Below the pieces are notes generated by a model. The model was not told the DNA's origin. It saw only the letters and a program-made list of their open reading frames with translations, and did not search any database. Positions 27,628 to 62,628 of a DNA stretch of 64,000 nt are shown here, one piece after another. The first letter of the stretch is position 1. Each line of letters begins with the position of its first letter. The position numbers were made by a program, and so were the translations under genes. Origin of the DNA: the human T2T-CHM13v2.0 reference genome, Homo sapiens; assembly GCF_009914755.1 (NCBI RefSeq), contig NC_060926.1; one strand, 5' to 3'.

Positions 27628-29137
27628 TGTGTCCAAAATTGGTGGGTTCTTGGTCTCACTGACTTCAAGAATGAAGCTGCGCACCCTCGCAGTGAGTGTT
27701 ACAGTTCTTAAAGATGGTGTGTCCGGAGTTTGTTCCTTCTAATGTTCAGACATGTTCAGAGTTTCTTCCTTCTGGTGGGTTCATGGTCTCGCTGGCTTCA
27801 GGAGTGAAGCTGCAGACCTTTGCAGTGAGTGTTACAGCTCTTAAAGGCGGTGCATCTGGAGTTGTTTGTTCCTCCCGTCCGGAGTTGTTCATTACTCCCA
27901 GTGGGTTCGTGGTCTCGCTGGCCTGAGAAGTGAAGATGCAGACCTTCGCTGTGAGTGTTACATCTCATAAAGGCAGTGCGCACCCAAACAGTGAGCAGCA
28001 GCAAGATTTATTGCAAAGAGCTAAAGAACAAACCTTCCACAGTAAAGAAGGAGACCCCAGCGGGTTGTTGCTGCTGTCTTGGGCAGCCTGCTTTTATTCC
28101 CTTATCTGACCCCACCCACATCCTGCTGATTGGTCCATTTTACAGAGAGCTGATTGGTCCATTTTACAGAGAGCTGATTGGTCCGTTTTACAGAGAGCTG
28201 ATTGGTCTGTTTTGACAGGGTGCTGATTGGTGTGTTTACAATCCCTGAGCTAGACACAGAGTGCTGATTGGTGCATTTACAATCCTTTAGCTGGACATAA
28301 AAGTTCTCCAAGTCCTCACTAGATTAGCTAGACACAGAGCACTGATTGGTGCATTTCCAAACCTTGAGCTAGACACAGGGTGCTGATTGGTGCGTTTACA
28401 AACCTTGAGCTAGACACAGAGTGCTGATTGGTGCATCCACGAACCCCGAGCTAGACCCAGAATGCTGATGGGTGCATTTACAATCCTCCAGCTAGACACA
28501 AAAGTTCTCCAAGTCCCCAATCAACTCAGGAGCCCAGTTGGCTTTGCCTAGTGGATCCCACGCCAGGGCTGTGGGCAGAGCTGCCCTCCAGTCCCACACC
28601 ATGCGCCCGCACTCCTCAGCCCTTGGGCAGCCGATGGGACCGGGCGCTGTGGAGCAGGGGGTGGTGCTCGTCAGGGAGGCTTGGGCCATGCGGTAGCCCA
28701 TGGGGTGGGTGGGGAGGCTCAGGCATGGCGGGCTGCAGGTCCCGAGCCCTGCCCTGTGGGGAGGCAGCTGAGGCTCAATGAGAATTTGAGTGCATCGCTG
28801 GCGGGCCGGCACTGCTGGGGGACCCGGCGCACCCTCCACAGCTGCTGGCCTGCGTGCTAAGCCCCTCACAGCCAGGGGCCAGCCGGCTGCTCCAAGTGTG
28901 GGGCCCGCTGAGCCTGCATCCACCCGGAACTCATGCTGGCCCAGGTTCCTGCCCATGCCTCTCCCTCCACACCTCCCCACAAGCAGAGGGAGCCGGCTCT
29001 GGCCTCGGCCATCCCAGAGAGGGGCTCCCACAGTGCAGTGGCAGGCTGAAGGGCTCCTCAAGTGCAGCCAGAGTGGGCACCAAGGCCGAGGAGGCACTGA
29101 GAGCGAGCAAGGGCTGCCAGCACACTGTCACCTCTCA
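27628..29137 (-). mobile_element. Solo LTR12 (ERV9 LTR) inserted in an L2 remnant
   Basis: Minus strand starts TGAGAGGTGACAG and ends CCAATTTTGGACACA; tandem CCAAT repeats; TSD atgg/atgc. Confidence 0.96.
28091..28470 (-). promoter_or_regulatory. LTR12 U3 promoter/enhancer: nine CCAAT (NF-Y) boxes followed by a GATA/AATAAA TATA-like element
   Basis: ctgattgg x9 between 28126 and 28431 plus one mutated copy; cttttattcccttatc at 28091-28106. Confidence 0.75.
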
Positions 29138-33082: not shown

Positions 33083-34585
33083 TGTTATGGAATCTTTGGG
33101 CTGTTGCTTTTCTGGCCAGAAACCTCTGTGGCCAATGACACATTTGCCCAAGTTCTTGTCCTGCGTCTGGGAAGAATGAGTTATGCAGACAAGTGGAGGT
33201 TGAGCAAGATAAAGAGGAGCTTTACTGAGTGTTAGAACAGCTCAGAGGAGTCCTGCAGTGGGTAGCTCTTCTCTGTAGGCAGGTCATCCCCGTTGAGTGT
33301 CCAGCTCTCAGCAGAGAGGAGGCCCTGGACTGGGTGGCCCCTGTCTGCAGGCAGGTCCTCCCATCTCTGCAGCTCTTAGCAGAAAGGAGGCCTGGAGTGG
33401 GTAGCTCCTCTTTGCAGGCAGGTCGTCCCCATGGAGTGTTCAGCTCTCAGCAGAGAGGAGACCCTGGAGTGGGTGGCTCCTCTCTTGTAGGTAGGTCATC
33501 CTGATGAGTGTTCAGCTCTCAGCAGAGAGGGTAGCTCCTCTCTCTAGCTGGTCATTGGGATGTCTACAGCTCTCTGCAGCTGGTTGTCAGGATGTCTGCT
33601 CTGCTTTGCTCTGGCTGAGTCCTGAGGATTTTATGTTCTTCAGAGGGAGGAAGTGCATGCTGGTGAGTCCATGGGCAGCCATGGGTGGGGCCAGGAAAAA
33701 GCACCATGAGTTCCCCCTTGAGTTAGCAGGTCTGGCAGCCCCTACAGAGGCTTTAGGCCTTCCTAACACTGAAGGTGAGGCTTCACCAGGACCCGTCTGC
33801 TTCCGCCTAGGAGCCTATCCGCATCCTGCCATGATCTATGGCCCAAGAGCCTGTCTGCCTTCTGCTACGGTCCATGGTCCCTGGGCTGTTCTTGCTGAGG
33901 GGTGCCTGCAGGCCAGCGCTGAGCTGCCTCAAACCCCCTTCAGCTTCCCTCCTGTGCTCCTCAGTGCCCAAAGTCCAGAGGGGACAGAGGTGGCAGGGGG
34001 CTGGCATGTCAGGTCTCCCCTGAGTGTGCGCCCACCCCACTGGGCTGCGAAAGCCCCCTGGCTCAGCCCCAACCTTGCTCCACAATTGAAGTGGGTGCCC
34101 CGGGGGAGTGGAGAGAGGCCAGGCAGTGGGAGCAGGCACTTCTGGGCCTTCAGAGGGCAGGAGGTCGTTCCTGGGCCTCCAAGAGCACCGATATACCTGG
34201 GTCCACGGCTGGGCTTGGGTGGCTGCAGCTGCACCTGTGAGCTCCTACCCAGCAAAATTGGAAAGGGCAGGGCTCCCGCTTGTCCCCGGCTCCCCTGGCT
34301 CAGTAGAGCATGCAACCCCGGCCATGCCTCTGATATTGGAGCAGGCACTGACAGCAGGGAGAAGGCAGGCAGCAGGGAAAGGCACTTCCAAGCCTGCCCC
34401 CAAGAGCACAGAGAGGCCTGAATCTGGACAGCTGCAGCAGCACACAGGACTCCTGCCTGCTCCGTGGAGTGTGTGTGGAGCACGGTGCTCCTGCCTGCTC
34501 CGTGGAGTGTATAGCCCCAGCTGCACCTCCCTGCTGCAGCAGTGTTTTGGCAGTGGCCGCTCTAGATGGGCCACTGCTGCCATCA
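33083..34585 (-). mobile_element. MER52-family solo LTR (ERV1)
   Basis: Minus strand starts TGATGGCAGCAGTGGCCCATC and ends CCATAACA; internal cagctctcagcagagagg repeats; perfect TSD gcatg (33078-33082, 34586-34590). Confidence 0.9.
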
Positions 34586-48367: not shown

Positions 48368-48652
48368 GACTGACATCTGTCACTTGGTGATTATAACTCA
48401 GTTACTTGACTGACTTGATGACTAGTTGCTGTGACCTGCTGCCTGATGACTATAACCTGGTGACTGTGACTTGGCGAATAGAGACTTTGTGGTGGTAACT
48501 GGTGACTGTGGCTTAGTGACTGGTGACTAACCTGGTGACTAGAGACTGTGACTTGGCATTTGGTGACTGAACTGGTGACCGATGACTGTGACTTGGTGAA
48601 TGGAGACTTTGGTGTGGCACTGGTGAATGTGAACTGGTAATAGGTGACTGCG
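48368..48652 (+). repeat. Degenerate (G)GTGACT-based tandem array
   Basis: About 18 TGAC words on the plus strand in about 280 bp. Confidence 0.8.
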
Positions 48653-59774: not shown

Positions 59775-60418
59775 AGGGGTGCTATACAATAAAAGTGTAA
59801 TGTGACACACAAATGCAAGCCAGTTACTTACAGTAGTCCCCCCACTTTATGTATGGTTTACTTTCCCAGGTTTTGGTTACCCACAGTATAGCACAGTAAG
59901 ATATTTTGAGACAGACCACATTCACATACTTTTCTATTATAGCATTTTATTCTAATTGCCCATATTATTAGTTATTTTTGCTAATCTCTTATGGTGCCTA
60001 ATTTATAAATTAAAATACCATAGGTATGTATGTATAGAAAGAAACATAGTATGTATCAGGTTCAGTGCTATCCACAGTTTCAGGTATCCACTGGGGTCCT
60101 TGGAATGTATCCCCTACAGACAATCAGGAATGTAAAGTTAAATTTTCGAGCAGCCACATTAAAATAAGCAAAAACAAAATAACAGCTTAAATTAATTTTA
60201 TTAATATATTTTATTAACCCGGAATATCCAAAATAGTATTATTTCCACATGTAATAAGTAAAAAAATGAAGTGGGATATTTTATATTGTTTTTCATGGTT
60301 AGTCTTCAAAATCTGGTATGTGTTTTCATTGACAGCACATCTCAATTTAAACAAGCCACCTTTCAAGTAGCCAACAGGCACATGCAGCTAGTGGCTATTA
60401 TGTTGGACCACACAGCTT
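59775..60418. mobile_element. MER33-like hAT element interrupted by a MER44-like element
   Basis: agcagccacattaaaa...acagcacatctcaattt...gctagtggctattatgttggac. Confidence 0.75.
59831..60132. mobile_element. MER44-like Tigger MITE
   Basis: TA-flanked; starts cagtagtccccc; tttcaggtatccactggggtccttggaatgtatcccc near the end. Confidence 0.78.
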
Positions 60419-61451
60419 TGAAAGAATTTCATGTTGGCAGAGAGAGAGTACATGAGTCTTGTTACTCCTTTTTTCCATGTTCCTAGTATAGTACTTAGGG
60501 TTCAAAATATTTGATGAATAAATTAACATTTTTTAAAGGCTCTTGATAGTTTTAGCTAAAAAGGGAGTCAGGTATCCAAGAATGATTCCTCTAAGCAATG
60601 GATTTGGGCCTATATTTTTTAAGTCAAAGCAGCACTCTTCATTAGTGGTACAACTAAGTTTTGAAAACTATTTTAGAATAAAGGCAACAACCCACTGAAT
60701 CTCATTAGTGAATAGATTTAAAAAGAAACCTTTGAATGTGAAATACTACAGCATGTTTCTACAAAGGGCTAGTGTGTACTAATGAGGAGGAAATGGTGGT
60801 GTCTGGCTGTGTTGTAATTGCATTTAGAGAGTGTACTTCATTATTGCATTACAGTAATCTCTTAGATATCCTGTGAGTGAGAATTCATTGTGTGAATTAT
60901 TTGAACCCGTTGGTTTTTTTATTCTCTTCTTTTGCTATTTTGTCATTTATCTGTTTAATTGCTTATGAACCTTGGAGATTAAACGTATTACAGACTAAAG
61001 AAGTGAAAAGTAGGTCAGTGGAATTTAATTACTGAGAAACCTTTATTGAAAACATTTAAAACAAACAAACAAACTACAGCTATAATAATCACCAAACATC
61101 ATTGGAAGTCACAACTCAGAATCTTTTTTGAGCACAAAAAATACCAATTATATTCAACATAACTTTAGAAAAAAGCAATGGAAGCAGGGCAAATAAAACC
61201 ACCTACATTATCTACATTATCATCATGATGCATCTGTACAGTACCTAAGCAAGCCAGTTTAATTTACAGAACTAATCTGGCAATACTCTTAAAGTTTCTC
61301 TGACAACATGTAATTAGAAAAGAATTGAACTCATTTCTGAAAGCAAATGCTAAGAAATGTTATATGCCACTGATCCACTACCAAGAAAGTAAGGACCATC
61401 CATTCAGCTCAAAGGTTTTGAAAAACCAACAGTTAATGTCCAGTTCTCTTC

Positions 61452-61630
61452 ATATATATAAATACGTATATACACACACACAAACACGCACAAATTATAT
61501 ATATACACACACACATATACAGACACATATACATACGTATGTGCTATACTAGGAACATGGAAAAAAAGGAGTGACAAGACTCATATACGTGTATATATGT
61601 ATGTATATGTGTGTGTGTATATATATATAA
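61452..61630. repeat. TA/CA/TG compound microsatellite with palindromic arms around a 48-bp unique insert
   Basis: CA-rich left arm, TG-rich right arm, insert 61541-61588. Confidence 0.85.
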
Positions 61631-62628
61631 AATAGAACTTCATCTTCTAGAACAGTCTTAGGTTCACAGCAAAATTGAGTGGAAGGATACAGAGATTTCT
61701 CCTCTACTCATTGGTCAATTCCCTTTTCCATGAACAAATCACTAATCTCTCAGCCAGGTTTCCTAGTGGGAGACTCCCAGGTCTAAGACATTGTGGCAAA
61801 AAGGAGTGTGGTGTGTTATAAGTCACAACATTTTCCTGGAAAAAACTGATTTTCATATGAGAGCCTATCAATTCGTTTAAGTAGATAACAAATATTGAAC
61901 ACTTACTTTGTGTCGTCTTTGGGTTAAATATTGTAACATATTTAAAAGCAGTGTGAAGCTTAGCTACTCCCTTTTAAAAGCCAGTGATAACAGAGATGAA
62001 ACAATTAGAGAAGTATTAGGCAGGAAACTATAAGGAACTACTGCTTCATGGAAAGAAAAGTTCTGAGGAAGGGTAGATCAATGAGGCTACAGAAATGAGG
62101 AAAGACATCATGGAAGGAATGGGATTTGAATTTCAGTTTGAAAGCTGAGGAGTGGAGAAGACAGAGAGCAAAGGTGTAGATCCATGAGCCGAGTGGCATG
62201 TATGAGTTGCCGGGGTGAAGTTGAGTGTGTGCTGGGAAGTACGAGGGGATTATAGTGGAAGATGAGTTGAAGATCTTGAAAGCCAGGCAGAGAGATTCTT
62301 GGATTTTACAAAAACAAGCTGCCAAGTCACAAATCCTAGGGATGTAAGGTTCCTCATTGTTCAAAATAATTGAAATGTCTTTCATCTAGAGGCAGAAGAC
62401 AGGATTCAGTTATTTCTCTATCAGGCTTAGGAGTATATAAAAACTGAGATACATTTTTAAAGATATAAAATGATGAATGTAGCAAAACATGGGAGGCCCA
62501 AGTGGCTGAAAGAGAAGAATGGATAAAGAGTGGCTAAAAAGTTACCTTTTAATATGATTGCTGAAAAGCATGATGTCAGAAGGATAATGTGCTTAAGGTT
62601 GAAAATAGATACGGTTGTTTTGGGACAT

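What the first reader, a model, noticed from the sequence alone, without database searches (positions are those of the whole stretch)
60448..61630. Inverted templated insertion at the tip of a microsatellite palindrome
Seen: 61541-61588 (gtgctatactaggaacatggaaaaaaaggagtgacaagactcatatac) is the reverse complement of unique sequence at 60448-60494, about 1.05 kb upstream, with 3 substitutions and 1 indel. This copy sits between two arms of about 46 nt (61495-61540, CA-rich; 61585-61630, TG-rich) that are near reverse complements of each other. No TSD or poly-A. Inference: a scar of breakage at a hairpin/cruciform apex, patched by template switching or end-joining that copied nearby DNA. It also creates nested inverted repeats able to fold or promote a 1-kb inversion.
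Basis: partly seen in the sequence, partly recalled or inferred. Interest (0 to 1): 0.7.

Follow-up and report, generated by a model that had tools for sequence, protein, structure and literature searches.

The report
Reversed DNA patch inside microsatellite palindrome
A 40-base stretch in a human non-coding intron is a reversed copy of unique DNA lying 1 kb away and sits at the exact centre of a CA/TG repeat palindrome; it is likely an old, functionless repair scar, and similar locally copied patches occur in other such repeats.

Summary
Window 61538-61588 is the reverse complement of 60448-60497 (46 of 51 identical; core 39 of 41). A search of the whole T2T genome finds only these two copies. 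The copy fills the 38-nt loop of a 46-bp CA/TG microsatellite stem, on its axis, with 1-7 nt of junction micro(homeo)logy and no TSD or poly-A. Best reading (0.6): a germline break at the palindrome centre, one end folded back and copied DNA 1.05 kb upstream, then rejoined by microhomology. Rival (0.25): the right arm is a second fold-back patch from the same event. The locus is not alone. Of 15 other CA..TG palindromes with a spacer of 20 nt or more, 9 have a local template; 5 are inverted, against 4 of 600 random segments. One is a near-twin (41 nt from 1.11 kb, on the axis, with a two-ended signature). The donor distance exceeds that of published TMEJ and template-switch sets, and two of the three template-switch surveys filter out microsatellites. 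The '1-kb inversion' idea is not supported: the longest perfect match is 23 nt, and a central spacer should stabilise the palindrome. Age and polymorphism could not be tested. No function is evident.

The parts
60448..60497 (+). Donor (template): unique sequence; clean core 60452-60491
   Evidence: T2T chr2:34,222,448-34,222,497
61544..61584 (-). Inverted templated patch (39 of 41 identical to the donor core); fills the 38-nt hairpin loop 61544-61581
61538..61544 (.). Left (priming) junction: 5 of 7 nt match the donor, 1 nt perfect
61582..61588 (.). Right (resolving) junction: 3 nt perfect, 6 of 7 nt shared between donor end and start of right arm
61496..61543 (+). Left arm, (TA)n(CA)n compound microsatellite
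61582..61630 (+). Right arm, (TG)n(TA)n compound microsatellite, near reverse complement of the left arm
61451..61495 (+). More degenerate upstream CA/TA array, unpaired in the fold
61631..61709 (-). Short fragment of a dispersed repeat whose terminus abuts the microsatellite (3' end of an old L1M; name recalled, not from a call)
   Evidence: 39 other scored matches at 84-93%; the 19 copies inspected continue where this one stops, and most have a T/A-rich stretch where the microsatellite sits
60116..60415 (.). Old dispersed repeat ending about 30 bp before the donor (MER33-like; name recalled); does not include the donor

Best explanation
The 40-nt stretch is an inverted copy of unique DNA 1.05 kb upstream lying on the axis of a CA/TG microsatellite palindrome, and it is likely a germline repair scar made when the palindrome broke at its centre and one end folded back, copied that DNA and was rejoined by microhomology. 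Shown: the copy, its uniqueness, its position on the axis, the junction overlaps, and recurrence at other loci. Inferred: (1) a TA/CA/TG tract at an old L1 tail was already palindromic; (2) it was cut or stalled at the hairpin tip; (3) the left end was single-stranded for over 1 kb and its alternating purine-pyrimidine 3' end mis-primed on its own strand at 60491-60497; (4) about 40 nt were copied by a non-processive polymerase (Pol theta or Pol delta-type; not distinguishable); (5) the new end annealed to the right arm through 3-7 nt. The spacer would make the palindrome less able to extrude, which would help the allele persist. No function is expected.
For: Two copies only in the genome. Stem closes within 1 and 0 nt of the patch borders. 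Resolving microhomology of 3 nt matches the 2-3 bp peak reported for TMEJ insertions (PMC11541566 passages). Such palindromes exist without any patch: 10 of the 13 other distinct loci fetched unselected have no non-alternating spacer of 8 nt or more. Sister locus L050 has a 41-nt inverted copy from 1.11 kb upstream on the axis plus a 9-nt inverted copy of the opposite flank joined through 4 nt, most simply read as both ends of a break snapping back with the TG arm already in place. L052 has a 38-nt direct copy from 4.2 kb away, 6 nt from the axis on each side. Direction into the microsatellite is seen at L048, where the donor is part of a longer dispersed repeat also present at L046. TA repeats break through cruciform cleavage and are repaired by MMEJ in human cells (PMC13645644 passages; shown for cancer ecDNA, not germline).
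Against: No empty allele or outgroup was available, so neither direction nor the prior palindrome is proven at this locus. The left junction has only 1 nt of perfect microhomology. Published TMEJ templates peak within 20 bp and are mostly under 10 bp long; SD-MMEJ repeats lie within 30 nt (PMC5728401); 40 nt from 1 kb is atypical. Four strongly templated sister spacers with near donors are off the axis (L036, L041, L047, L048), and a templated patch also occurs in a tract whose two arms are both CA-strand (L064, 1 of 2 tested), so a palindrome axis is not required. 6 of 15 spacers had no template within 1.5 kb. Arms carry only short pure TA runs (about 10 nt), so cruciform extrusion is not assured.
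Confidence: 0.6

Rival explanations
1. One multi-switch event made both the patch and the palindrome: the nascent + strand left the CA tract, copied the donor backwards, switched through the shared 7 nt to the left arm and copied it backwards (creating the right arm), then re-registered on the self-complementary (TA)n next to the L1 fragment.
For: Patch and right arm are both inverted copies of upstream + strand DNA; the right junction matches donor 6 of 7 and the reverse complement of the left arm 6 of 7; arm-arm and patch-donor divergence are of similar size; reiterated patches occur at L036, L047 and L048; multi-template germline insertions are described (PMC8421209 section 10).
Against: Palindromic tracts without patches are the majority; the arm match is barely above that of unrelated compound microsatellites (70 vs 69); L050 reads more simply as two-ended.
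Confidence: 0.25
2. A replication-fork template switch or capture of a displaced flap (FoSTeS/MMBIR-type, or end-joining capture of a released fragment) put the copy into a fragile alternating tract regardless of any hairpin; the axis position is chance or survivorship.
For: kb-scale donor distance fits a fork or long flap better than Pol theta's local search; flap capture at breaks is shown in yeast (PMC11724301 passages); patches occur off-axis and in a CA..CA tract.
Against: The three clear kb-range patches (this one, L050, L052) are all symmetric about the axis; spacers of 20 nt or more were counted by eye in 7 of 49 CA..TG loci vs 2 of about 80 CA..CA loci (Fisher p 0.026).
Confidence: 0.12
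3. The two copies are remnants of a dispersed repeat or the terminal inverted repeats of one element, or the match is chance or an assembly error.
For: The genome search skips very common words and reports lower bounds; an old repeat ends 30 bp from the donor.
Against: Only two candidates genome-wide; copies of the neighbouring repeat stop matching at or before 60415; the 1-kb interval has no other match in the genome; E 8.6e-12 in the window; the copies differ from each other, which a read artefact would not give.
Confidence: 0.03

Closest known systems
Pol theta-mediated end joining (TMEJ) foldback/inverse templated insertions; snap-back SD-MMEJ (PMC11541566, PMC5728401)
   Same: Inverted copy of DNA on the retained side of the junction, short priming and resolving microhomology; sister loci show both foldback (inverted) and cross-junction (direct) geometry.
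   Different: Template is 1.05 kb away and 40 nt long, against a peak within 20-30 bp and under 10 bp; the enzyme cannot be tested.
MMBIR templated insertions (MMB-TI) as germline variants (PMC8421209)
   Same: Inverted insertion of 25 bp or more with microhomology or microhomeology; present in a normal human genome; multi-template cases known.
   Different: That survey required templates within 100 bp and removed microsatellite calls, so this locus lies outside its definition.
Short-range template switch mutations in apes and humans (PMC7954356; bioRxiv 10.1101/2021.11.26.470150)
   Same: Reverse-complement copy of local DNA, AT-rich context.
   Different: PMC7954356 requires a template within 100 nt; the bioRxiv survey removes low-complexity loci.
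Centre-break palindrome revision and palindrome-mediated insertions (term seen in PMC3300023; SOX3 palindrome insertions in PMC7999016 and PMC7680136; mechanism recalled)
   Same: Foreign sequence lands at the axis of a palindrome and breaks its symmetry.
   Different: Here the palindrome is a 46-bp microsatellite stem, and the insert is 40 nt from 1 kb away rather than over 100 kb from another chromosome.

Membership tests
Locally templated insertion (broad) | Insert matches a unique nearby template far above chance | tested here: met
Locally templated insertion (broad) | No TSD or poly-A (not retrotransposed) | tested here: met
Locally templated insertion (broad) | Ancestral allele lacks the insert and keeps the donor | not testable with these tools
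   No primate genomes or human haplotypes held; the locus has no paralogue
TMEJ foldback / snap-back SD-MMEJ | Resolving microhomology of about 2-3 bp or more | tested here: met
   3 nt perfect, 6 of 7
TMEJ foldback / snap-back SD-MMEJ | Priming microhomology | tested here: inconclusive
   1 nt perfect, 5 of 7; later mutation may have eroded it
TMEJ foldback / snap-back SD-MMEJ | Template within about 20-30 bp of the break | tested here: not met
   1054 bp vs passages
TMEJ foldback / snap-back SD-MMEJ | Dependence on POLQ | not testable with these tools
   Needs an experiment
MMB-TI / short-range template switch as defined in the cited surveys | Inverted orientation with junction microhomology | tested here: met
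MMB-TI / short-range template switch as defined in the cited surveys | Template within 100 bp | tested here: not met
Centre-break palindrome revision | Insert lies at the symmetry axis | tested here: met
   Stem ends 1 and 0 nt from the patch
Centre-break palindrome revision | Palindrome existed before the insert | tested here: inconclusive
   Indirect only; no empty allele
Transposon TIRs / dispersed repeat | Further copies in the genome, with the interval repeated | tested here: not met
Microsatellite-derived miRNA hairpin (mir-3149, mir-5014, mir-1277) | Reaches the Rfam gathering score | tested here: not met
   54.8 of 100, 44.2 of 101, 34.7 of 81 bits

The most novel reading that the evidence does not exclude
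Palindromic (TA)n(CA)n-(TG)n(TA)n microsatellites are recurrent germline break sites whose axes collect 35-45-nt patches copied from 1-4 kb away, which then defuse the palindrome. This would be a fossil record of kb-range templated repair in the human genome that template-switch surveys miss because they mask microsatellites or search only 100 bp. This locus, L050 and L052 would be three members found from two exact-motif scans.
Probability: 0.35. Interest if true: 0.55.

Novelty: new variant of a known kind. Interest (0 to 1): 0.33.

Why it matters
The single locus is neutral intronic DNA (inside LINC01317, no annotated element). Its value is as an example of a countable class: if kb-range templated patches gather at microsatellite palindrome axes, they would give a direct, testable measure of how often TA-rich repeats break in the germline and how far a broken end searches for a template. 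They would also explain a source of interruptions in compound microsatellites that slippage cannot produce.

Tried and rejected
Dispersed repeat or TIR: rejected. Paralogue as outgroup for this locus: none exists. Paralogues of sister locus L050: 10 of 10 copies at 95-100% identity carry the patch, so there is no empty allele; that event predates those duplications. Dating from patch-donor divergence: 1 substitution in 40 nt gives 12-25 Myr with a 95% range of 0.3-139 Myr (rates recalled), uninformative. Two short look-alikes of the patch right of the locus (61724-61732, 61798-61808): the best score is reached by 65 of 1000 random 500-bp windows, treated as chance. Rfam miRNA hits: all under the gathering score, caused by the CA/TG stem. 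Spacer of L045: no donor within 1.5 kb or genome-wide. Duplex energies were not used, as it is unclear that DNA parameters applied. One review on templated insertions (PMC10962320) was not held. Earlier scan findings were not available, so nothing rests on them. Most sister loci were read to 1.5 kb each side only, so more distant donors would be missed for L038, L044, L049, L054, L056 and L063.

Full report
1. Observation. Local alignment gives 60448-60497 against the reverse complement of 61538-61588 at 46 of 51 columns; the core 60452-60491 / 61544-61584 is 39 of 41, with one substitution and one extra base in a T-run. The other mismatches lie at the two ends, inside the junction overlaps, so they need not be post-insertion mutations. 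In the 64-kb window the hit has E 8.6e-12 and the next best is 11 nt. In the whole T2T genome a 91-nt query finds the donor and this copy only; a 1351-nt query finds besides them only an old repeat family at 60116-60415 that stops about 30 bp short of the donor. The arms pair over 46 aligned bases with 3 mismatches and a 2-nt bulge, and the stem closes at 61543:61582 around a 38-nt loop. The right flank 61631-61709 is the terminus of a dispersed repeat; in most of the 19 copies inspected a T/A-rich stretch lies where the microsatellite is. This fits a microsatellite born from an old L1 tail (family name recalled). The locus is in an intron of LINC01317 with no annotated element (hub annotation).

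2. How special are the arms? Not very. The right arm matches its own left arm better than any of 5000 dinucleotide-unit shuffles, but only 70 against 69, 68 and 66 for microsatellites at 27 other loci chosen by the same motif (four further rows, L058-L061, were dropped because the tested window missed their repeat). Exact-motif scans find 63 CA..TG matches with a 70-100-nt gap and 94 with a 39-69-nt gap; some loci appear in both. Among the 13 other distinct loci that fetched without my choosing, 10 have no non-alternating spacer of 8 nt or more, and 2 of the 3 that do carry an inverted copy of their own flank.

3. Is the patch a one-off? No. I added 14 loci picked by eye for a non-repeat spacer from the listed 50 of 63 and 50 of 94 matches. 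Of the 17 loci other than the finding, 15 have a spacer of 20 nt or more (L055 and L057 dropped as shorter). Within 1.5 kb, 5 of 15 have an inverted template scoring 40 or more (L036 at 68 bp, L041 93 bp, L047 179 bp, L048 207 bp, L050 1114 bp), and 3 more have a direct one scoring 30 or more (L051 and L053, which are plain tandem duplications; L046 at 1072 bp, weak). Random non-repeat segments of the window reach these thresholds in 4 of 600 (inverted) and 42 of 600 (either) trials; Fisher p 5e-7 and 5e-6. A genome search found a ninth: the L052 spacer is a 38-nt, 97% direct copy from 4.2 kb downstream. Six had no template found (L038, L044, L045, L049, L054, L056); L044 has an imperfect inverted match that does not beat its null. 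The selection was by eye and the sample is small.

4. The near-twin. L050 (G000:C2:89470797) has a 41-nt inverted copy of DNA 1.11 kb upstream sitting 1 and 0 nt from the stem ends. Its paralogues show a 3-nt priming overlap. After the donor-derived part come 9 nt that are the reverse complement of the right flank, sharing 4 nt with the donor. The simplest reading is that both ends of one break snapped back and joined, with the TG arm already on the right end. That favours a break between pre-existing arms. All 10 segmental-duplication copies (95-100% identical) carry the patch, so it is older than those duplications and gives no empty allele.

5. Does the palindrome matter? The three clear kb-range patches (this locus, L050, L052) are symmetric about the axis (1/0, 1/0, 6/6 nt); the four short-range inverted ones and weak L046 are not. 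As a control I scanned for two CA-strand arms at the same spacing: 375 matches, 100 listed, about 80 distinct loci. By eye 2 of about 80 have a spacer of 20 nt or more, against 7 of 49 independent loci (p 0.026). One of those two control spacers is itself an inverted local copy (L064, 22 nt from about 60 bp), so templated patching is a property of TA-containing alternating tracts in general, with a modest excess where the tract changes polarity.

6. Mechanism. Best (0.6): break at the palindrome tip, long single-stranded left end, mis-priming of its alternating 3' end on its own strand at 60491-60497 (1 nt perfect, 5 of 7), about 40 nt of synthesis, release, and annealing to the right arm through 3 perfect nt (6 of 7). 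Rival (0.25): one chain of switches that also wrote the right arm, since patch and arm are both inverted copies of upstream + strand DNA. Rival (0.12): fork switch or flap capture with no role for the hairpin. Only an empty allele separates the first two, and no primate genome is held here. Age is unconstrained (0.3-139 Myr; rates recalled).

7. Consequence. A 42-bp spacer at the axis abolished palindrome-induced recombination in HeLa cells (PMC3300023, section 15 read; passages), and a 52-bp spacer relieved fork stalling in eukaryotic cells (PMC7999016, passages). The patch more likely stabilised the site. Rfam hits to microsatellite-type miRNA families are all under threshold.

8. Comparison with print. 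TMEJ insertions in human cells come in foldback and cross-junction classes with 2-3 bp microhomology, but templates peak within 20 bp, are typically under 10 bp, and were sought within 500 bp (PMC11541566, passages). SD-MMEJ uses repeats within 30 nt (PMC5728401, passages). Germline MMB-TIs of 25 bp or more are about 100 per person, with templates within 100 bp and microsatellite calls removed (PMC8421209, passages and first part of section 10; supplements not read). One ape template-switch survey needs a template within 100 nt (PMC7954356, passages), and a human one drops low-complexity loci (10.1101/2021.11.26.470150, passages). Yeast foldback insertions and flap capture: PMC11724301, passages. 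TA-repeat cruciform cleavage with MMEJ repair on cancer ecDNA: PMC13645644, passages. PMC7680136 (passages) catalogues palindromes without spacers and does not cover this. Nine searches (listings only unless named above) showed no paper describing kb-range templated patches at microsatellite palindrome axes; most subscription journals are outside the library, so this is weak evidence of novelty.

9. Verdict. Real, well explained in kind, and probably without function. It works like a foldback templated insertion but fails the distance criterion of TMEJ and MMB-TI as published, and it belongs to a small recurring set. Novelty: new variant of a known kind. Interest 0.33; the class-level reading has probability 0.35 and would merit 0.55.

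Noticed in passing
L050:327-367 and 1476-1560 (G000:C2:89469666 and 89470815): Near-twin of the finding: 41-nt inverted copy from 1.11 kb upstream on the axis of a CA/TG palindrome, plus a 9-nt inverted copy of the right flank; shared by 10 segmental-duplication copies on C2, C4, C10, C16, C22, C24 (region likely IGK-related, recalled).
   Followed up: yes
L052:1486-1523 and L062 (G000:C4:134686219-134686256): 38-nt direct copy from 4.2 kb downstream placed symmetrically in a CA/TG palindrome.
   Followed up: yes
L034:1420-1690: The unique flanks on both sides of an alternating tract are themselves a perfect inverted repeat of at least 25 bp, making a larger palindrome centred on the microsatellite.
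   Followed up: no
L036:1430-1700: Flanks form an inverted repeat of over 60 bp around the tract, and a third copy of the flank end lies inside it: nested fold-back copies.
   Followed up: partly
L047:1276-1540 and L048:1245-1520: Tracts with several reiterated patches of flank DNA in both orientations; the L048 donor is the start of a dispersed LTR-like repeat also beside L046 (MLT2-like, recalled).
   Followed up: partly
G000:C22:6250158-6251884 and C24:11567980-11569713: Two paralogues of L050 align in two overlapping pieces (query 1260-1345 twice), suggesting a later short tandem duplication covering the right arm.
   Followed up: no
window 61495-61628: The stem-loop scores below threshold against miRNA families with microsatellite-like stems (mir-3149, mir-5014, mir-1277) and lies in a lncRNA intron; the 38-nt loop is large for a miRNA precursor.
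   Followed up: partly
window 59833-60120: Looks like a Tigger-type MITE (MER44-like, recalled) directly upstream of the repeat at 60116-60415; neither is in the hub's list of longest masked stretches.
   Followed up: no
window 27640-27979, 28215-28519, 33238-33530, 48385-48649: Local imperfect direct duplications or minisatellites (68-85% identity) seen in the self-comparison.
   Followed up: no
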